A DNA stretch of 64,000 bases from Bradyrhizobium sp. (GTDB taxonomy: Bacteria; Pseudomonadota; Alphaproteobacteria; Rhizobiales; Xanthobacteraceae): assembly GCF_049519115.1 (NCBI RefSeq), contig NZ_JBEKRB010000007.1, positions 103,798 to 167,797 of the forward strand, given 5' to 3'. Positions within the stretch are counted from its first letter, which is position 1, and each line of letters starts with the position of its first letter. The translations under genes were made by a program, and so were the position numbers. Positions 3,119 to 57,197 of the stretch are shown here, piece after piece. The notes beneath the pieces are model-generated. The model made no database searches. It had not been told where the DNA came from and worked only from the letters and a program-made list of their open reading frames with translations.

Positions 3119-3276
3119 CCCGGGGATGGGTTCCGGCCGGGAGGCCGGCGGGGAGGCCGCTGGCTGCCCAAAGACCGCCCCGGTCATTTCCTAAATTTTC
3201 GGTAAGACCTCTGCCAGTTAAGGATTTGGCAAGATATGAAAGTTACCAAATGGTCAATCTTTAATGGAGAATTGCC

Positions 3277-4347
3277 GTGAGCGACCAGCAACCCGAGCCA
3301 ATTGGCGGCGAATCCGGTTCCCTTGACGCAGGTGTTTCCCATCCGTCCAGCGAGGCGGTAACGGCTTCCGCGGCGGCGACCAGCGAAGCGGCGGTCGTGC
3401 CGGTGTCCGAGCCATCCATGCCGGAGCCGTCAATGTCCGAGCCTTCAATGGAGGCAGTGGCGTCGGAGACCCCGAAAGTCGAGGCCCCGAAAGTCGAGGC
3501 CGTGAAGGCCGAGGCGAGCCCTCAGGCAGCCCAGCCGGAAGCCGCGGGTGAGAAAATTTCACCCACCCCCGGCAAGGTCATCGTCATGTCACGGGGCGAT
3601 CGTGCCTGGTCCGATCATGGCGTCCATGCCGAGTCTGAGGCGGCCGGGCAGCAAAGCGTGTTCGGCATGCGCCGAATCGCGGCGATCGCCGCCGTGGTGG
3701 CGCTGGCGATTGCAGCCGGTGCGCTCGGCGGTGCGTTTGCGACCGCGACCCTCATGCATGGCGGCAGCGACACGGCAAGCAACGGCAGCCCGACTTCGCT
3801 CGAGGCTTCGCTGTCGCGGATCGACACCGATATCCAGGCGCTGAAGACCGGCCTCGATCACACCTCCAAACTCGGCTTGAGCCAGTTCAACAAGACCAGC
3901 GAGCGTCTCGACAAGCTCGAGCGTGCGCAGGCCGACCCGGCCGCCAAGATCGCCAAGCTCAGCGAAACCGTCGACAAGCTCCGCGCCGCACCCGCTGCGG
4001 CACCGGCGGCGGCTGCGGCGGCTCCTGCCGCATCTTCCGCCGCGAAGGAAACCACCGGTTCGATCGCACCCGCCCAGCAAGCTTCGGCAACGACGGCTGT
4101 GCCCAAAACCGAAGCCAAGACCGAAGCCAAGGTCGACACGAAGACCGAAGTCGGCCGCTTGCCGACGCTGGAAGATTGGGTGCTGCGCGATGTCGGCTAT
4201 GGCGGCGCCCTGATCGGCGGCCGTCGCGGCACTTACGAAGTCTATGCTGGCGACACGATTCCGGGTCTCGGCCGGGTCGATGCCATCCGCCGCCAGGACG
4301 GCCGCTGGGTGGTCGTGACCAGCCGCGGCCTGATTGTGGCGCGCTAA
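3277..4347 (+). CDS. Hypothetical membrane-anchored protein (low-complexity N-terminus, TM helix, coiled coil, small C-terminal beta domain)
   Basis: 356 aa ORF with GGAGA RBS and GTG start; TM segment IAAIAAVVALAIAAGALGG. Confidence 0.75.
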   Translation: MSDQQPEPIGGESGSLDAGVSHPSSEAVTASAAATSEAAVVPVSEPSMPEPSMSEPSMEAVASETPKVEAPKVEAVKAEASPQAAQPEAAGEKISPTPGKVIVMSRGDRAWSDHGVHAESEAAGQQSVFGMRRIAAIAAVVALAIAAGALGGAFATATLMHGGSDTASNGSPTSLEASLSRIDTDIQALKTGLDHTSKLGLSQFNKTSERLDKLERAQADPAAKIAKLSETVDKLRAAPAAAPAAAAAAPAASSAAKETTGSIAPAQQASATTAVPKTEAKTEAKVDTKTEVGRLPTLEDWVLRDVGYGGALIGGRRGTYEVYAGDTIPGLGRVDAIRRQDGRWVVVTSRGLIVAR

Positions 4348-11027: not shown

Positions 11028-14000
11028 CTATTCCTCGCCCGACAGCAGCGCGGCATTGCCGCCGGCGGCGGCCGTATTGATCGTTACGGTCTGCTCGGTG
11101 GCAAAGCGCGCGAGGTAGTGCGGGCCGCCGGCCTTGGGGCCTGTGCCGGACAGGCCGGAGCCGCCGAACGGTTGCACGCCCACGACCGCGCCGATCATGT
11201 TGCGGTTGACATAGACATTGCCCACGCTGAGCCGCTCCACTACCGCATCGACCACATCGTCGATCCGCGAGTGAATCCCGAGCGTCAGCCCGTAACCGGT
11301 GCGTTCGATCGACGCCAGCACCTCGTCAAGACTACTGGCCGCGTAACGCACCACATGCAGGATTGGGCCGAATACTTCTTCGGTCAGCTGACCGGCGTTT
11401 TCGAGTTCAAAGATATGCGGCGCGACATACTGGCCCTCCGGGGCGGCCCCGGAAAAATGCACCCGCGCCTCGCGCTTCATCCGCGCAATGTGCGCGTCCA
11501 GTCGCGCTTTGGCCTCAGCATCGATCACCGGGCCGATATGAACGGCGGGATCGGAAGGATTGCCGATCTTCAATTCACGCGCAGCCCCGGAAATCATTTC
11601 GATCATGCGATCGGCGACGTCTTCCTGCACGAACAAAATCCGCAACGCCGAACAGCGTTGGCCGGCCGAACGGAAGGCAGAGGTGAGGACATCGTCGGCA
11701 ACTTGTTCTGGCAGCGCGGTCGCATCCACGATCATGGCGTTGATGCCGCCGGTCTCGGCGATCAGCGGCACGATCGGGCCGTCCTTGGCCGCCAACGTGC
11801 GATTGATGCTGCGCGCGACTTCCGTCGAACCCGTAAAGACGACGCCGGCCGCGTCCGGATGGGCCACCAGCGACGCACCGATGCGGCCGTCGCCGGGCAC
11901 CAGATGCAGCGCGGACGAAGGCACGCCGGCCTCGTGCAACAGAGCTACCGCCTCGAACGCGATCAACGGCGTCTGCTCGGCGGGCTTTGCCACCACGGTA
12001 TTGCCGGCCATCAGAGCCGCGGTGATCTGGCCGGTAAAAATCGCGAGTGGAAAATTCCAGGGCGAAATCGCGACGAAGGCGCCGCGGCCGCGCAGGCCCA
12101 GCACATTGCTCTCGCCGGTCGGGCCAGGCATGGTCTCGCCCGCGCCAAACAGCTCGCGGCCAAGGCTCGCGTAATAGCGGCAAAAATCCGTGGCCTCGCG
12201 AACTTCCGAGATCGCGTCGTCGAGCGTCTTGCCGCCCTCGCGTTGTAAAAGCGCGATGAAACGCGCGGCGCGGCTCTCCAAGAAGTCAGCGGCGCGATCG
12301 AGATGATCAGCACGGATGGCGGCCGGCGTGCGGCTCCAGCTTGAGAAGCCGGCGCGGGCAGCAGCCATGGCTGCATTGGCGCCCTCAACGGTCGGCTCGA
12401 TCACGTTTCCGATCGGCGTGGCCGGATCGGCCGGGCTGAAAAGCTGTCGCGCCTTCCCGGTGCCGGCGTTGCCGCCGATCACGGCTGTCGCGTCGACCGG
12501 CGCGGTCTCGGCTTGGACCGACGCGAGCATGGCTTGCAAGGCCGCGCGGTCGCCGAATTCGATGCCGCGCGAGTTCTGGCGCTGCGGCCGATAGAGATCG
12601 ACCGGCAAGGGGATGTTGGGGTGGCGGGCATTGTCGGCGCTACCGATGATATCGGCGGGACGCCGCAGCAACGTCTTTACTGGCACGGCGTCGTCAGCGG
12701 CGAGCGCGACGAAGGAGGAGTTGGCGCCGTTTTCAAGCAGGCGCCGCACCAGATAAGCGAGCAGATCACGGTGGCTGCCGACCGGCGCGTAGGTGCGGCA
12801 AGCGAGCGTCGGGCGATCGGCGGTCAGTCGCGCATAAAGCGCTTCGCCCATGCCGTGCAGGCGTTGCAATTCAAAGCCGCCCTCGTCGCCCGCAAGTTCA
12901 AGAACGGTGGCAACCGTCAGCGCGTTGTGGGTGGCGAATTGCGGGAACAGCCGCGGCCGCAGCTTCAGGAGCTGTTCGGCGCAGGCGATGTAGTTCAGGT
13001 CGGTCATCGCCTTGCGCGTGAAGACGGGATAGCCGTCGAGGCCGCGCTCCTGCGCGCGCTTGATCTCGCTGTCCCAATAGGCGCCCTTGACGAGCCGCAC
13101 CATCATGCGCCGGTTCAGTTTGCTTGCCAGTTCGCAACTGTAGTCGATCACGGCGCTGGCGCGTTTTTGATAAGCCTGAATGGCGAGGCCAAAGCCGTCC
13201 CAGTCCGCGAGCGAGGGGTCGGCAAACGCCGCCTCAATCACTTCGAGCGAAAGGTCGAGCCGGTCGGCCTCTTCGGCGTCGACCGTGAGGTTGAGGTCGA
13301 AGGATTTGGCGCGCTGCGCCAGATCGATCAGCCGTGGCACTAATTCCGCCATCACGCGCTGCCGGCTCAAGGGCTCAAAGCGCGGATGCAGCGCCGAGAG
13401 TTTGATCGAAATGCCGGGCCGGTCGGGCAGGGGGCGCGAGCCGGCGCTGGCGCCGATCGCGTCAATCGCGCGTGCGTAGGCTGTGAAATAGCGCTCGGCG
13501 TCGGCGGCGGTGCGCGCGCCTTCGCCAAGCATGTCGAAGGAGTAGCGGGGAAACGCGCCCGATTGGGCCCGCGCCAGCGCGGCCTCGATGGTCTCTCCAA
13601 GCACGAAATGGCTGCCCATCAGCCGCATCGCCTGCCGCGTGGCGGCTCGGACGGCCGGCGCGCCGAGGCGCTTCACCAGCCGGCCGATGGTCCCATCCGG
13701 CGTTTCGCCCGGTTGAATGACCCGCGCCGACATGCCGAGCGCCCAGGCCGAGGCATTGACCAGGAATGCGCTCGATCGGGTCTCGTGGTGGATGAAGTCG
13801 CCCTCGCCGAGCTTGTCCTCGATGAAGCGGTCGGCGGTGCGCGCGTCCGGAACGCGCAGCAGCGCCTCCGCCAGCACCATCAGCGCGAGGCCCTCTTTGG
13901 TGGAGAGCGCAAATTCGCGCAGCATGTCCTCGACGCCGCCGAACCGGTCGTCGTTGGCGCGGATGGCCTCGATCAGCCGGGTCGCGGTTAGGTCAATCCG

Positions 14001-18525: not shown

Positions 18526-20100
18526 GTGACGATGGCGCCCCCAGATAGCTTCCGGAGCGAAGCCAAACATTCCGCGCTCAAGCCGTGGCTTGGCGTCATC
18601 GCGCTGATCGTGGCGATGACGGTCATGCGCGCCGTCTATGCGAGCCTGATCGATCTGCGGACCGACGAATCCTATTACTGGACCTGGTCGAAGGAGAGCG
18701 TGCTTTCCTTCCTCGACCATCCGCCCATGGTGGCCTGGTTCGTTCGTTTCGGCACCGCGATCTTTGGCGATACGAATTTCGGCGCGCGATTCGCCGGTCT
18801 CGTGGCCATGCTTGCCGCGCAATTATTGCTTGCCGATCTCGTCTGGCGCGTCACGCGCGATCTTCGGATGGCCGTCGTCGCGGTACTGATGATGGAGGCA
18901 TCGCTCTATTACGGCCTGCTGATGACCAAGATCGCGCCGGATGTCCCGCTGGTTCTCTTCGTCACCGCGATGGCCTGGGCGCTGGTGCGGTTGGCCGAAA
19001 GCGGCGATGGGCGATGGTGGCTCGCGGCCGGTGTTTTTGCCGGGCTCGCGGCACTGTCGAAATTCACGGTTGCCTTACTGCTTCCGGCGGTGCTCGCCTT
19101 CATGTGGGTGCCAAACTGGCGCGGCCGCTGGCTGCGCAGTCCCTATCCATGGACGGCTGCCGCAATAGCATTGTTGCTGTTCACGCCGGTCCTGATCTGG
19201 AACATGCAGCACGATTGGGCTTCGTTTCGTTTTCAGGCGGTGCGGGCGGCAGCATCCCATCAATGGTCGCTACGTACGTTCGGCGAATTTCTGGGCCTGC
19301 AATTCGGCCTCGTCGGTTTTGTCCTGTTGCCGGTCGTCTTGACGGGCGTCGTGTTGACGGCGTGGCGCGGATATCGCCGTGGTGAAGCCGTTGCGATCCT
19401 GCTGTCGACCGCCGTGCTCATTCCCTTTGTCTACTTTTTGTGGAAGTCGCTGAGCTTGCGGGTCGGCGATACCTGGCCGACCTTCATCTGGCCGTTCGGT
19501 TTTGCGGCGGCCGCGATCAATCTGTCGATGCTGCGGAAGGAAGGATGGTCCCAATCCTTTATCGCGATGTCGCACCGCTGGGTCAGGATCGCGATCGTCT
19601 CCGGCATCGCCTTTGTGGTTGCTGTTTGCTTCTACTACCTGGCGATGCCGTTCAATTTCATCGGCCGCACCGATCCGGTCGGTGGCGAGGCTGGCTATGA
19701 GTCGATCGTGACGCGGACCGAGGCCGAGCTGCAAAAGACCGGTGCGACCTGGATCGCCACGTCAGACTACCGCACTTATGCGATGCTGCGCTGGTTCTTC
19801 CATGGCCGCCTGCCGGTGGTGCAAATCAACGAGCGCGGTCGGTATCAGGGTTTTCGCGAGCCGGACATGAGCCTGATCGCAGGCCATGCCGGCATATATG
19901 TCGGGCGCGAACCCGACAATAATCCGTCGGCTTCCTTGTGGGCTTCGGTCCCGGCCAAACGCGAACCGCTGGAGCGGGTCGATCGCGTCTGGCGTGGGAT
20001 CGTCATGGATAGTTATTCGATCGAGAAGTTCACCGGCTGGACGCCACAGCTCTCGCCGCCGCCGGATTCGCCGTTGTTCGACTGGCGCTGGCTGGCGTAG
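18526..20100 (+). CDS. GT-C glycosyltransferase family 39 (ArnT/PMT-like)
   Basis: DESYYWTWS, FLDHPPMVAW, LSKFT and PVLIWN motifs; many TM helices. Confidence 0.85.
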   Translation: MTMAPPDSFRSEAKHSALKPWLGVIALIVAMTVMRAVYASLIDLRTDESYYWTWSKESVLSFLDHPPMVAWFVRFGTAIFGDTNFGARFAGLVAMLAAQLLLADLVWRVTRDLRMAVVAVLMMEASLYYGLLMTKIAPDVPLVLFVTAMAWALVRLAESGDGRWWLAAGVFAGLAALSKFTVALLLPAVLAFMWVPNWRGRWLRSPYPWTAAAIALLLFTPVLIWNMQHDWASFRFQAVRAAASHQWSLRTFGEFLGLQFGLVGFVLLPVVLTGVVLTAWRGYRRGEAVAILLSTAVLIPFVYFLWKSLSLRVGDTWPTFIWPFGFAAAAINLSMLRKEGWSQSFIAMSHRWVRIAIVSGIAFVVAVCFYYLAMPFNFIGRTDPVGGEAGYESIVTRTEAELQKTGATWIATSDYRTYAMLRWFFHGRLPVVQINERGRYQGFREPDMSLIAGHAGIYVGREPDNNPSASLWASVPAKREPLERVDRVWRGIVMDSYSIEKFTGWTPQLSPPPDSPLFDWRWLA

Positions 20101-56154: not shown

Positions 56155-56274
56155 ATGTCCGAGTTGGGGTCATTAGCACCGTTCTGACGCTTTGCCGGCC
56201 ACTTCCGGTCTAACCCGACGAACAGACATTTTCTGATGCGCTCGGCATGTTGGCTTCGTGCCAGAAGCAGAACT
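56155..56274. repeat. ATGTCC...GGTCAT...GACAT dispersed repeat, intact copy
   Basis: Anchors and spacing are collinear with the IS-interrupted copy at 56905/58335. Confidence 0.65.
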
Positions 56275-56286
56275 GAAAGTGCCCGG

Positions 56287-56805
56287 CTACTTCGCCCGCT
56301 TGAATACGACTTCAAGCGTCGTGCTGGGCACCAAGCCAGGTCTTGTGAACTTCAACTCGTTTTCGGTCAGTGAAGTAATAGTGCGTTTTTCGGTGGGGTC
56401 GCCGGTTAGATTTGCAAATGTACTGGCTTGGATATCGACACTGAGAACGTTGCTTGCTTCGTCCAGCAAATATTTTCCGAAATAGGCGATGGACCCGGCG
56501 AGGACGGCCTTGGCCTCGTCAGCAGTCGCCGTTTGGGGTCTGCCGGAAACCAGCTTTGGAAGATCAGCCCGCGCCTGCATGAGAGAAAAATATCCATCGC
56601 TCGTGTAGATTACGATGCCCTTCGGATTTTCACCGAACAGAGGACGCCTCGTGCCGTCGGAAGACACGACATCGACGGAAACCTGGAGCCAGGTGCCGAC
56701 GAGTTTTTCCTTGAGCGATTGTTTCTGGCCGAGCGCATCGAATGTCATCAGGGGCGATCCAAAAGCCGCGATAATGCATGCGGCAAAAATCACGCGCAAA
56801 TTCAT
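56287..56805 (-). CDS. Lipocalin-like domain secreted protein
   Basis: Signal peptide; KLVGTWLQVS, GIVIYT.DG and IAYFGKY motifs. Confidence 0.8.
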   Translation of the reverse strand: MNLRVIFAACIIAAFGSPLMTFDALGQKQSLKEKLVGTWLQVSVDVVSSDGTRRPLFGENPKGIVIYTSDGYFSLMQARADLPKLVSGRPQTATADEAKAVLAGSIAYFGKYLLDEASNVLSVDIQASTFANLTGDPTEKRTITSLTENELKFTRPGLVPSTTLEVVFKRAK

Positions 56806-56945
56806 TGGTTTCTCCCGAAGAGACGACTGATCGCGTTGGTCAAAGCCGCAATTCCGGACGTTACCACGCTCCGAAAAACGAGCAAGGTAAGGCTCGGGCC
56901 TGGCATGTCCTTGAGGGTCATGTGTGGACGACGCCCACGGGTCAA

Positions 56946-57197
56946 GGGATTTTTTGGTTCTCAGCTTGCGGTCGGGTGCAAGTCATGTGTCCGGCCTGTT
57001 GGTGCGGCGCTCATGACCGCTGGCCCTGATGTAATCCGCAGATTGAGTCCCTATCATTCGCCCGCGCTCAAGAGCGCTTGACCCAGTAGCGGGTTCTCCC
57101 AATCCCCGGTCCAACCGGTTCGCATCAAACCATTATCACCCTCGACTTTCTTGTGCGCCTCGACGCAGCTTCCCAAACTATTTCGATGCCAAGCCCT
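56946..57197 (-). ncRNA. Predicted bridge/seek RNA in the IS 3' non-coding region (boundaries approximate)
   Basis: Contains segments matching the target junction (GGGUCA, GCGAAUGA) and the donor junction (ACAUCA, ACACAUGA), arranged in two loops. Confidence 0.7.

What the first reader, a model, noticed from the sequence alone, without database searches (positions are those of the whole stretch)
56946..57197. IS1111-type element carries a readable bridge RNA whose four guide segments match its own target and donor junctions
Seen: the rejoined target is GAGGGT-CAT-TCGCG and the circle (donor) junction is CCACAT-CAT-GTGTGG. On the transposase strand, the 3' non-coding region reads GGGUCA (57084-57079), a GCGCU-CUUG-AGCGC hairpin, then GCGAAUGA (57061-57054). 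These match the left top strand (6 nt) and right bottom strand (8/8) of the target. Further on come (UU)ACAUCA (57032-57027) and ACACAUGA (56990-56983), which match the donor (6 nt plus 2 possible G-U pairs, and 8/8) and are enclosed by UGCGG/CCGCA. Established: IS110/IS1111 recombinases use a bridge/seek RNA with target- and donor-binding loops. Inference: this is a complete natural programmable recombinase with a CAT core and a predictable specificity. The system class is known; this guide set may be uncharacterised.
Basis: partly seen in the sequence, partly recalled or inferred. Interest (0 to 1): 0.85.

Follow-up and report, generated by a model that had tools for sequence, protein, structure and literature searches.

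The report
IS1111-type insertion sequence with bridge RNA
This is an intact IS1111-type jumping gene whose own small RNA reads both its insertion site and its own ends, a mechanism described in 2024, so it is a well-documented new member of a known class and not a new kind of system.

Summary
All four RNA segments are at the stated coordinates and match the rejoined target and the joined IS ends (joint chance 0/5000 shuffles).

The element spans 56921-58331 on the minus strand. It is a complete IS1111-group insertion sequence:
- a 349-aa DEDD/Transposase_20 recombinase
- 15-nt subterminal inverted repeats
- an 84-nt 5' and a 277-nt 3' non-coding region

Evidence that the RNA is real and guides targeting:
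- Relatives inserted elsewhere change the 3' target guide and the left flank together (0/20000 shuffles).
- 63 of 76 right flanks start ACCC, as the invariant GGGUCA guide predicts.
- The stems flanking the target loop show compensatory changes.
- Seven soil metatranscriptomes hold near-identical contigs for the non-coding region only.
- The 3' donor guide tracks the right end in distant relatives.

- The shared core is CA (TG in IS orientation), not CAT.
- The UGCGG/CCGCA closing stem is not conserved; a long-range helix closes a multi-loop instead.
- The 5' donor guide is the least certain segment.

The target, GCGAA-TG-ACCC, lies in a REP-like repeat. This is a new member of a known kind, and interest is modest.

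The parts
56921..58331 (-). Body of the IS1111-group insertion sequence: 1411 bp, or 1413 bp counting one copy of the 2-nt core.
   Evidence: Ends were fixed by aligning 13 related copies in different flanks. The window holds a single copy.
56919..56920 (-). Core dinucleotide at the right junction (TG in IS orientation, CA on the + strand).
   Evidence: The junction pattern flank-TG-ATGnn-GTGGACG ... CGTCCAC-ACA-TG-flank recurs in close and distant relatives. The base 5' of TG belongs to the flank (L002, L009-L011).
58332..58333 (-). Core dinucleotide at the left junction (TG in IS orientation).
58334..58338 (-). Left half of the target (GCGAA in IS orientation), read by the 3' target guide.
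   Evidence: Guide and flank covary: 4.24 of 5 variable positions match against 2.69+-0.27 when shuffled, 0/20000 shuffles.
56915..56918 (-). Right half of the target (ACCC in IS orientation), read by the 5' target guide.
   Evidence: 63 of 76 distinct right flanks of relatives start ACCC.
57198..58247 (-). Recombinase gene, 349 aa. DEDD residues are D10, E53, D90, D93. The GLVPRQNSTG motif places T258-G259 at the nucleophile position.
   Evidence: Pfam PF01548 at 8.7e-16 and PF02371 at 3.3e-24. ISCro4 (9t56) at 1.5e-12 and IS621 (8wt6) at 1.3e-10, with the DEDD residues aligned in ISCro4. Residue numbering. The TG variant of the motif is described for IS1111 (PMC11187229).
58312..58326 (.). 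Left subterminal inverted repeat (GTGGACGGCGCCCAC in IS orientation).
   Evidence: Inverted repeat I3: 15 nt, 93% complementary.
56924..56938 (.). Right subterminal inverted repeat.
   Evidence: repeat I3.
56921..57130 (-). Bridge/seek RNA region. The 5' limit is approximate and comes from transcript contigs.
   Evidence: Metatranscriptome contigs at 97-100% identity cover 56922-57102, 56916-57120, 56915-57053, 56941-57077, 56916-57059 (twice) and 56981-57130. No contig at 97% identity or better runs through the gene body; short pieces touch the gene's 5' start and a conserved internal stretch.
57079..57084 (-). 5' target guide GGGUCA. It pairs with the top strand (IS orientation) TG+ACCC.
   Evidence: Invariant in nearly all relatives, and right flanks match it.
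57064..57077 (-). Hairpin P4 inside the target-binding loop (GCGCU-CUUG-AGCGC).
   Evidence: Three pairs have changes on both sides, e.g. GCACU/AGUGC in L007, L008 and L012.
57054..57061 (-). 3' target guide GCGAAUGA. It pairs with the bottom strand of GCGAA+TG+A.
   Evidence: Natural allelic series: GCGAUUGA, GUGAAUGA, GCUAAUGA, GGUUUUGA and GUUCAUGA, each with the matching flank.
57098..57104 (-). 5' strand of stem P2 (GAUUGGG), which closes the target-binding arm. It pairs with 57041-57047.
   Evidence: All 7 pairs show compensatory changes and 96.4% of cells are paired.
57041..57047 (-). 3' strand of stem P2 (CUCAAUC).
57027..57034 (-). 5' donor segment UUACAUCA. It is complementary to TG+ATGTGG of the left end (6 Watson-Crick pairs plus 2 G-U).
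   Evidence: The match is. Distant relatives covary at right-donor position 4 (T:A, C:G, A:U, G:C). Close relatives with ATGCG or ATGAG left ends keep ACAUCA.
56993..57025 (-). Hairpin arm P6/P7 between the two donor segments (GGCC A GCGGU ... GCCGC ... GGCC).
   Evidence: 97.9% and 99.2% of cells paired. P7 has two pairs with changes on both sides; its terminal pair shows CG/UA/UG/AU.
56983..56990 (-). 3' donor guide ACACAUGA. It has the same sense as the right end ACACA+TG+A and pairs with the bottom strand.
   Evidence: It covaries with the right end in distant relatives: L024 ACAUAUGA/CACATA, L025 AGACAUGA/CAGACA, L026 AUACAUG/CATACA, L030 AUAGAUG/CATAGA.
57111..57117 (-). 5' strand of the long-range helix P1 (CGGUUGG). 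It pairs with 56969-56975 and encloses both arms in a multi-loop. A local hairpin, CCGG(57118-57115)/CCGG(57109-57106), competes with it.
   Evidence: Compensatory changes in L023 (GGUUGA/UCAACC) and L024 (UGAUCG/CGAUCA). Column counts are blurred by poor alignment of the 3' tail.
56969..56975 (-). 3' strand of helix P1 (CCGACCG).
57122..57127 (-). Conserved upstream motif UGAUGC, complementary to the 5' donor segment.
   Evidence: Near-invariant in 24 sequences. UAAUGC occurs with GCAUUA in L019, L020, L027 and L031. Its role is unexplained.
56940..56945 (-). -35-like hexamer TTGACC of a junction promoter. The -10 (CATGAT) exists only when the ends are joined (56922-56919 plus 58331-58330).
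   Evidence: Scan of the reconstructed circle junction gives 9/12 with a 17-nt spacer, and nothing in the linear form. No promoter-like site lies inside the integrated element.

Best explanation
**What it is.** Window 56921-58331 (minus strand) is an intact insertion sequence of the IS1111 group of the IS110 family. It encodes a DEDD/Transposase_20 recombinase. From its 277-nt 3' non-coding region it produces a bridge (seek) RNA of roughly 200 nt.

**The RNA.** It has two arms.
- The target-binding arm consists of stems P2/P3, an internal loop and hairpin P4. The loop presents GGGUCA, which pairs with the top strand of TG+ACCC, and GCGAAUGA, which pairs with the bottom strand of GCGAA+TG+A. 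Together they specify the 11-bp site GCGAA-TG-ACCC (GGGTCATTCGC on the window + strand). This site lies in a REP-like repeat.
- The donor part lies in a multi-loop around hairpin P6/P7. ACACAUGA matches the right end ACACA+TG+A. UUACAUCA is complementary to TG+ATGTGG of the left end.

**Proposed cycle.** After excision the joined ends create a promoter, TTGACC-17-CATGAT. This promoter transcribes the recombinase gene and the RNA together, and the RNA is then trimmed and kept stable. A recombinase tetramer holding the RNA aligns the circle junction with the target and exchanges strands at the 2-nt TG core. The nucleophile is T258 (or the adjacent S257) acting with the DEDD site, as in IS621.

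**Shown here:** element anatomy; guide-flank covariation for the target loop; covariation of the 3' donor guide with the right end; stem covariation; RNA presence in metatranscriptomes.

**Inferred by homology:** circle formation, junction promoter activity, RNA processing, the chemistry, and the role of the 5' donor segment.
For: **Family**
- Pfam PF01548 and PF02371 hit the protein.
- ISCro4 and IS621 structures are matched, with D10/E53/D90/D93 aligned to ISCro4's DEDD residues.
- The GL-P----TG motif is present.
- The protein is 43.6% identical to ISEc11 and 37.7% to IS5075 over nearly its full length.
- There are 15-nt subterminal inverted repeats and the long non-coding region lies downstream of the gene.

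**Guides**
- All four segments are verified and are non-random (0/5000 shuffles jointly).
- The order, top-strand match 5' of bottom-strand match, is the IS1111 order (PMC11187229).
- Among 21 distinct guide/left-flank pairs, 4.24 of 5 variable positions match against 2.69+-0.27 when shuffled, 0/20000 shuffles.
- 63 of 76 right flanks start ACCC.
- The 3' donor guide follows the right end in L024, L025, L026 and L030, and the spacing between donor segments is 42-43 nt in all.

**Structure**
- 91% of cells are paired, 15 pairs change on both sides, 0/500 shuffles reach this, and slid controls fall to 19-40% paired.
- G-U pairs are tolerated only on the recombinase-sense strand.

**Expression**
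- Seven metatranscriptomes hold contigs at 97-100% identity on 56915-57130, and none that runs through the gene body.
- A DNA run covers most of the element, including an 870-bp contig across the gene body.

**Promoter**
- A promoter-like site exists only across the joined ends.

**Literature**
Against: - No experiment links this RNA to this protein.
- The RNA strand is not shown, because contigs carry no direction. The metatranscriptome runs were also chosen because they hold words from 56923-57400, and contigs show presence, not absence.
- The minimum-free-energy fold of the whole non-coding region is not better than shuffles (z = -0.99).
- Rfam has no matching family.
- For ISEc11 the short 82-nt seekRNA was sufficient for movement and the role of the long form was left open. 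A donor loop may therefore be dispensable in this group.
- The 5' donor segment does not follow left-end variants ATGCG and ATGAG in close relatives. It is also complementary to a conserved upstream motif. A similar UUACAU occurs in ISEc11, whose left end does not match it.
- A few insertions have imperfect flanks (L003, L007, L064, L120).
Confidence: 0.85

Rival explanations
1. Only the target-binding arm is a guide (a seekRNA in the strict sense). The recombinase recognises the IS ends through the subterminal inverted repeats. On this view the two 'donor' segments are structural parts of the RNA, or products of shared ancestry, and are not functional guides.
For: - For ISEc11 the 82-nt short seekRNA alone supported transposition, and the role of the long form was left open.
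- The 5' donor segment ignores left-end variants in close relatives.
- It pairs with a conserved upstream motif, with one compensatory change.
- ISEc11 has a similar UUACAU without a matching left end.
Against: - The 3' donor segment follows the right end at two variable positions in four distant lineages, with one exception (L114) in the metagenome set.
- ISEc11 has AUAUAAA, matching its own right end CATATAAA, at the homologous place.
- Distant relatives show all four Watson-Crick combinations at right-donor position 4.
- The donor pair is non-random (20/5000 shuffles).
Confidence: 0.12
2. The matching segments act as DNA, not RNA. They would be internal copies of the end and target sequences that serve as recombinase binding sites or as single-strand DNA hairpins.
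For: The matches themselves do not say which molecule is read. The subterminal repeats show that DNA-level recognition exists in this group.
Against: - Stem covariation tolerates G-U only on the recombinase-sense strand.
- The region is present in seven metatranscriptomes, which hold no contig through the gene body.
- Homologous elements co-purify with this RNA.
- The two target segments pair with opposite strands and overlap at the core, as in solved IS621 complexes.
Confidence: 0.02
3. The matches are chance resemblances in a GC-rich non-coding region.
For: Single 6-mers recur by chance. For example GAGGGT and GGTCAT also occur in the region.
Against: The two pairs together are reached in 0/5000 shuffles. 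Guide-flank covariation is reached in 0/20000 shuffles.
Confidence: 0.01

Closest known systems
ISEc11 and other IS1111-group elements with a seekRNA (ISPa11, ISKpn4, ISPst6; Siddiquee et al. 2024, PMC11187229)
   Same: - The recombinase is related over its full length (43.6% identity to ISEc11).
- It has subterminal inverted repeats and a long non-coding region downstream of the gene.
- The top-strand match lies 5' of the bottom-strand match, with a hairpin between them.
- The target is a structured repeat; ISPa11 targets a REP.
- A junction promoter has its -35 box just inside the right repeat.
- The ISEc11 non-coding region has the same layout and the shared string GCGRAUUACAU...GCCGGA.
   Different: - The guides and target differ (GCGAA-TG-ACCC).
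- The recombinase has the TG variant of the SG motif.
- No experiment has been done on this element.
- Comparative evidence here points to a donor-reading 3' segment. The seekRNA study did not assign one.
IS621 / ISCro4 bridge RNA recombinases (IS110 group; Durrant et al. 2024 PMC11208160; Hiraizumi et al. 2024 PMC11208158)
   Same: - The DEDD plus Tnp-domain recombinase matches PDB 8wt6 and 9t56.
- The RNA has one part for the target and one for the donor. Each has two guides that pair with opposite strands and overlap a 2-nt core.
- The target is a REP-like repeat.
- A promoter forms at the circle junction.
   Different: - The RNA lies 3' of the gene, not 5'.
- The guide order within a loop is reversed.
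- The donor segments sit in a multi-loop, not an internal loop.
- The subterminal repeats are long (15 nt).
- The core is TG, not CT.
- The nucleophile position holds T-G, not S-G.
- Sequence identity is low, and only the C-terminal half aligns with confidence.
ISPpu9 of Pseudomonas putida (PMC12288879)
   Same: It is an IS110-family element inserted in REP sequences, with a small-RNA gene downstream of the transposase gene (abstract).
   Different: I did not compare the sequences. ISPpu9 has solo copies of its RNA gene, and no solo copy is present in this window.

Membership tests
IS110 family, IS1111 group (insertion sequence) | N-terminal RuvC-like DEDD catalytic domain | tested here: met
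   PF01548 hits at 8.7e-16. D10, E53, D90 and D93 align with the DEDD residues of ISCro4.
IS110 family, IS1111 group (insertion sequence) | C-terminal Tnp domain with the GL-P----S(t)G motif | tested here: met
   PF02371 hits at 3.3e-24. The motif reads G250-L-V-P-R-Q-N-S-T258-G259, the TG variant reported for IS1111.
IS110 family, IS1111 group (insertion sequence) | Subterminal inverted repeats of 7-17 bp with short terminal extensions | tested here: met
   The arms are 56924-56938 and 58312-58326, 15 nt, 93% complementary. Extensions of 3 and 5 nt lie outside them.
IS110 family, IS1111 group (insertion sequence) | The longer non-coding region lies downstream of the recombinase gene | tested here: met
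   277 nt downstream against 84 nt upstream.
IS110 family, IS1111 group (insertion sequence) | Recombinase related over its full length to IS1111-group transposases | tested here: met
   ISEc11-family: 43.6% identity over 94% of the query. IS5075: 37.7% over 96%.
IS110 family, IS1111 group (insertion sequence) | Insertion at one specific sequence, in one orientation | tested here: met
   Independent insertions share flank-TG-IS-TG-ACCC.
IS110 family, IS1111 group (insertion sequence) | Circular intermediate with a promoter formed by the joined ends | tested here: inconclusive
   A promoter-like TTGACC-17-CATGAT exists only in the reconstructed junction. No read or contig with the junction was seen (searches list no joints).
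Bridge RNA / seekRNA | A stable RNA is made from the long non-coding region | tested here: met
   In 7 of 7 metatranscriptomes examined, contigs at 97-100% identity lie on 56915-57130, and none runs through the gene body. Short pieces touch 57949-57987 and the gene's 5' start. Strand and exact ends are not determined.
Bridge RNA / seekRNA | Two segments pair with opposite strands of the target and overlap at the crossover point; in IS1111 the top-strand match comes first | tested here: met
   GGGUCA sits 5' of GCGAAUGA, and they overlap at TGA.
Bridge RNA / seekRNA | Guide and target covary among relatives (natural reprogramming) | tested here: met
   0/20000 shuffles reach the observed match. 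There are five allelic guide types with matching flanks.
Bridge RNA / seekRNA | Guides sit in loops bounded by conserved stems | tested here: met
   Stems P2, P3, P4, P6 and P7 are 83-99% paired, and 12 of their pairs carry compensatory changes.
Bridge RNA / seekRNA | A second pair of guides reads the joined IS ends (donor-binding part) | tested here: inconclusive
   The 3' segment covaries with the right end. The 5' segment gives mixed results.
Bridge RNA / seekRNA | The RNA binds the recombinase, is required for recombination and can be reprogrammed | not testable with these tools
   This needs co-purification and a recombination assay.
Bridge RNA / seekRNA | Match to a curated RNA family model | tested here: not met
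   There is no Rfam 15 hit at E<=1 on 56500-58700. I do not know of any Rfam model for this RNA class, so this says little.

The most novel reading that the evidence does not exclude
IS1111-type RNAs may carry two features not yet described for this group.
1. Product-matching ('handshake-like') bases. The last base of the 3' donor guide follows the first base of the right target. The last base of the 3' target guide follows the first base of the left end.
2. A conserved upstream motif, UGAUGC, that pairs with the 5' donor segment. It could act as an anti-guide switch controlling when the donor is bound.

Together with covariation of the 3' donor segment, this would give the 'long seekRNA' a role: it would be the donor-reading half of the RNA.
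Probability: 0.15. Interest if true: 0.55.

Novelty: new member of a known kind. Interest (0 to 1): 0.3.

Why it matters
The system class is established. RNA-guided recombination by IS110/IS1111 elements was described in 2024, so this element does not change that picture. It has three modest uses:
- It supplies a natural allelic series. At least five target-guide variants occur, each sitting in the matching variant of one repeat family. This is a ready-made specificity data set for the less studied IS1111 branch.
- It gives comparative evidence that the 3' half of the long RNA reads the right end of the element. The published seekRNA work left the role of the long RNA form open.
- It shows that the RNA is detectable on its own in soil metatranscriptomes.

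For genome annotation, the 11-bp site predicts where further copies can land in these soil Alphaproteobacteria.

Tried and rejected
- **Rfam.** A scan of 56500-58700 at E<=1 found nothing.
- **Single-sequence folding.** The whole non-coding region folds no better than shuffles (z = -0.99), and the minimum-energy fold buries the guides. I relied on comparative structure instead.
- **Promoter scan of the integrated element.** It found no site.
- **More insertions of the identical recombinase.** The look-up returned ten contigs, all of the same locus as the window, so it added no independent insertion.
- **Further intact targets in the window.** Matches with up to 1 mismatch in 11 are no more frequent than chance.
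It is 75% paired and not positionally conserved outside close relatives, so I rejected it as the conserved closure.
- **A CCG/CGG pairing proposed by RNAalifold.** It appeared on a truncated alignment and was an artefact of cutting off the 5' hairpin.
- **The UCAUGA loop of hairpin P7 as an extra guide.** I rejected this because the loop varies freely among relatives.
- **CAT as the core.** Rejected.
- **L018, L025 and L023.** These gave poor target matches. Other IS elements lie next to L018 (an IS110-family gene) and L025 (an IS6-family gene), so their flanks are probably not cognate.

Full report
**1. Observation**

- GGGUCA: 57084-57079
- Hairpin GCGCU-CUUG-AGCGC: 57077-57064
- GCGAAUGA: 57061-57054
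- UGCGG: 57040-57036
- UUACAUCA: 57034-57027
- ACACAUGA: 56990-56983
- CCGCA: 56971-56967

The two junctions read as stated. I shuffled the 259-nt non-coding region 5000 times, preserving dinucleotides. A complementary plus a same-sense match through the core, in the right order and spacing, reached the observed length in 16 shuffles for the target and 20 for the donor. No shuffle reached both.

**2. The element**

The ORF at 58247-57198 (minus strand, 349 aa) hits Pfam DEDD_Tnp_IS110 and Transposase_20. It also matches the solved ISCro4 and IS621 recombinases.
- D10, E53, D90 and D93 align with the DEDD residues of ISCro4.
- The motif GLVPRQNSTG puts T258-G259 at the nucleophile position. This is the TG variant described for IS1111-group enzymes (PMC11187229).
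- A 15-nt subterminal inverted repeat lies at 56924-56938 and 58312-58326.
- The non-coding region is 84 nt upstream of the gene and 277 nt downstream.
- The protein is 43.6% identical to an ISEc11-family transposase and 37.7% to IS5075, over nearly its full length.
- The closest isolates are 56-67% identical.
- The exact protein is on record on 23-24 metagenome contigs. The ten I read are all the same locus as the window.

All defining features of the IS1111 group that sequence can test are met. The window holds one copy.

**3. Ends and core**

Thirteen related copies from Xanthobacteraceae, Pseudolabrys and other MAGs (78-97% amino-acid identity) lie in different flanks. They fix the ends. 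In IS orientation the pattern is flank-TG-ATGTG-GTGGACGG ... CGTCCAC-ACA-TG-flank. More distant plasmid-borne relatives show the same pattern.

In L002 the left junction reads GCGAT-TG, and in L009-L011 it reads ...TT-TG. The right junction stays ACACA-TG in all of them. The base 5' of TG therefore belongs to the flank, not to a shared core. The core is TG (CA on the window + strand; 56919-56920 and 58332-58333).

In L023 and L031 the right junction carries CG where the left has TG. In L031 both target guides specify CG. Even the first core position can therefore differ between partners.

**4. Target guides**

Among the first relatives, the 3' target segment changes together with the left flank.
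- GCGAUUGA with GCGATTGA
- GUGAAUGA with GTGAATGA
- GCUAAUGA with GCTAATGA

A metagenome scan with an invariant 29-mer from the donor part returned 80 more loci. Combined with the earlier loci, these give 21 distinct guide/left-flank pairs. Of the 5 variable positions, 4.24 agree on average against 2.69+-0.27 after shuffling the flanks, and 0 of 20000 shuffles reach the observed value.

The 5' segment GGGUCA is nearly invariant, and 63 of 76 distinct right flanks begin ACCC. Pairing does not extend further. The specificity is therefore 5 + 2 + 4 = 11 bp: GCGAA-TG-ACCC.

The order, top-strand match first, is the one reported for IS1111 seekRNAs and the reverse of the IS110 type (IS621 definitions). 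That test is passed.

**5. Donor segments**

Close relatives carry no variation here, so I used 14 plasmid-borne relatives.

The 3' segment follows the right end, and the spacing between the two donor segments is 42-43 nt throughout.

| Locus | 3' donor segment | Right end |
|---|---|---|
| L024 | ACAUAUGA | CACATA |
| L025 | AGACAUGA | CAGACA |
| L026 | AUACAUG | CATACA |
| L030 | AUAGAUG | CATAGA |

ISEc11 has AUAUAAA at the homologous place, directly after GCCGG, and this matches its own right end CATATAAA.

The 5' segment is less clear.
- For: distant relatives show T:A, C:G, A:U and G:C at the fourth base of the left end, and L030 pairs over 9 nt.
- Against: close relatives whose left end is ATGCG or ATGAG keep ACAUCA.
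- Against: the invariant part CAUCA pairs with an invariant TGATG, which says nothing either way.
- Against: the segment is complementary to a conserved upstream motif UGAUGC (57127-57122), and that motif changes to UAAUGC exactly where the segment is GCAUUA.

I count three of the four segments as supported guides. The fourth is probable.

**6. Structure**

This analysis used a 24-sequence alignment.
- Stem P2 (57104-57098 with 57047-57041) has compensatory changes at all 7 pairs.
- P3, P4, P6 and P7 are 83-99% paired.
- Overall 91% of cells pair and 15 pairs change on both sides. No shuffle out of 500 reaches this, and sliding the partner drops pairing to 19-40%.
- G-U pairs occur on the recombinase-sense strand, which argues for an RNA of that sense.

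CGGUUGG (57117-57111) can pair with CCGACCG (56975-56969), with compensatory changes in L023 and L024. That helix would enclose both arms and place the donor segments in a multi-loop. This is the layout Durrant et al. describe for many IS1111 orthologues. A local hairpin CCGG/CCGG competes with this helix, and I could not decide between the two.

**7. Expression**

The element occurs in peat and soil metagenomes. In seven metatranscriptomes the only contigs at 97-100% identity that extend over more than a short stretch lie on the non-coding region.
- 56922-57102 (no differences)
- 56916-57120
- 56915-57053
- 56941-57077 (adapters on both sides)
- 56916-57059 (twice)
- 56981-57130

No such contig runs through the gene body. 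In contrast, a DNA run gives an 870-bp contig across 57059-57928 and covers most of the element.

There are caveats. The runs were selected for holding words from 56923-57400. Contigs have no strand. Contigs show presence, not absence. Even so, 42% of the query used to find the runs was coding sequence, and none of it was recovered.

A sigma-70-like site, TTGACC-17-CATGAT, exists only across the joined ends, as in ISEc11 and IS621. No promoter-like site lies within the integrated element.

**8. Target context**

The flanks are conserved beyond the guided 11 bp. The right-flank consensus is ACCC-AAAG-CGGACA. The motif ATGTC-N4-9-GGGTCA occurs 4 times in the window against 0.11 expected. The target is therefore part of a short REP-like repeat, as for ISPa11, IS621 and ISPpu9. 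An unoccupied variant site GGGTCATTAGC lies at 56167-56177. It matches the L012-type guide exactly and this element's guide at 10 of 11 positions.

**9. Verdict**

This is an intact, probably active IS1111-group element with a bridge/seek RNA. The class and the mechanism are known (PMC11187229, PMC11208160, PMC11208158). The guide set and target appear not to have been characterised, so this is a new member of a known kind.

The points of some interest are:
- the natural allelic series of target guides
- the comparative support for a donor-reading 3' segment in the IS1111 branch
- two unexplained features: the upstream UGAUGC motif and the product-matching terminal bases

Interest is 0.3.

Noticed in passing
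window 56155-56177 (+): An unoccupied site ATGTCC-N6-GGGTCATTAGC lies 750 bp from the element. It matches this element's 11-bp target at 10 of 11 positions. It matches exactly the target of relatives whose guide is GCUAAUGA (L012, L092).
   Followed up: partly
window 13718-13733 (-), 19567-19585 (+), 56155-56172 (+), 56905-56920 (+): The motif ATGTC-N4-9-GGGTCA occurs 4 times against 0.11 expected by chance. Right flanks of related insertions share ACCC-AAAG-CGGACA well beyond the guided bases. The target therefore belongs to a short REP-like repeat family. From memory, this repeat reads as '...ANDPKRT' in spurious ORFs of Bradyrhizobium-like genomes; I did not check that.
   Followed up: partly
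window 57122-57127 (-) with 57027-57032 (-): The conserved motif UGAUGC upstream of the RNA arms is complementary to the 5' donor segment. It changes to UAAUGC where the segment is GCAUUA (L019, L020, L027, L031), although the DNA left end stays TGATGC. It may be an anti-guide or an alternative helix.
   Followed up: partly
L019, L023, L026, L030, L031 (non-coding regions): The last base of the 3' donor guide tends to equal the first base of the right target flank (G, G, C, G). The last base of the 3' target guide tends to equal the first base of the left end (A). The guides thus match the recombination products, which recalls the handshake guides of IS621. The sample is small and L030 is an exception.
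   Followed up: partly
L162:1705-1990 (ISEc11 on E. coli plasmid NZ_CP119442.1): The ISEc11 non-coding region has the same layout as this element, including GCGAAUUACAU..GGGGC...GCCGG-AUAUAAAG. AUAUAAA matches the ISEc11 right end CATATAAA. This suggests that the published 'long seekRNA' equals the target arm plus a donor-reading part.
   Followed up: partly
window 57059/57060, runs X29 and X31: Two metatranscriptome contigs match 56916-57059. They then diverge completely inside the 3' target guide (CAAGGACATAAACG...). This is either a relative with an unrelated target arm or a chimeric contig.
   Followed up: no
L008:2826-2860 and 3240-3326: The right end of this copy is followed by a second partial right end (GGGCGCCGTCCACACATG) before the usual ACCC flank. 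A further 78%-identical fragment of the right end lies about 400 bp downstream. These are remnants of earlier insertions at the same repeat.
   Followed up: no
L004, L005, L013, L014 (one MAG, CAVUXO01): One genome bin carries at least four copies with two different 3' target guides (GUGAAUGA and GCGAAUGA). Where flanks could be read (L004, L005, L014), each sits in the matching flank. Guides have thus diversified within one genome.
   Followed up: partly
window 58348-58357 / 58384-58393: A perfect 10-nt inverted repeat, GCGATGTCGG/CCGACATCGC, lies just outside the left junction. An overlapping terminator-like hairpin was called at 58345-58364. Both are probably part of the repeat element that holds the target.
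   Followed up: no
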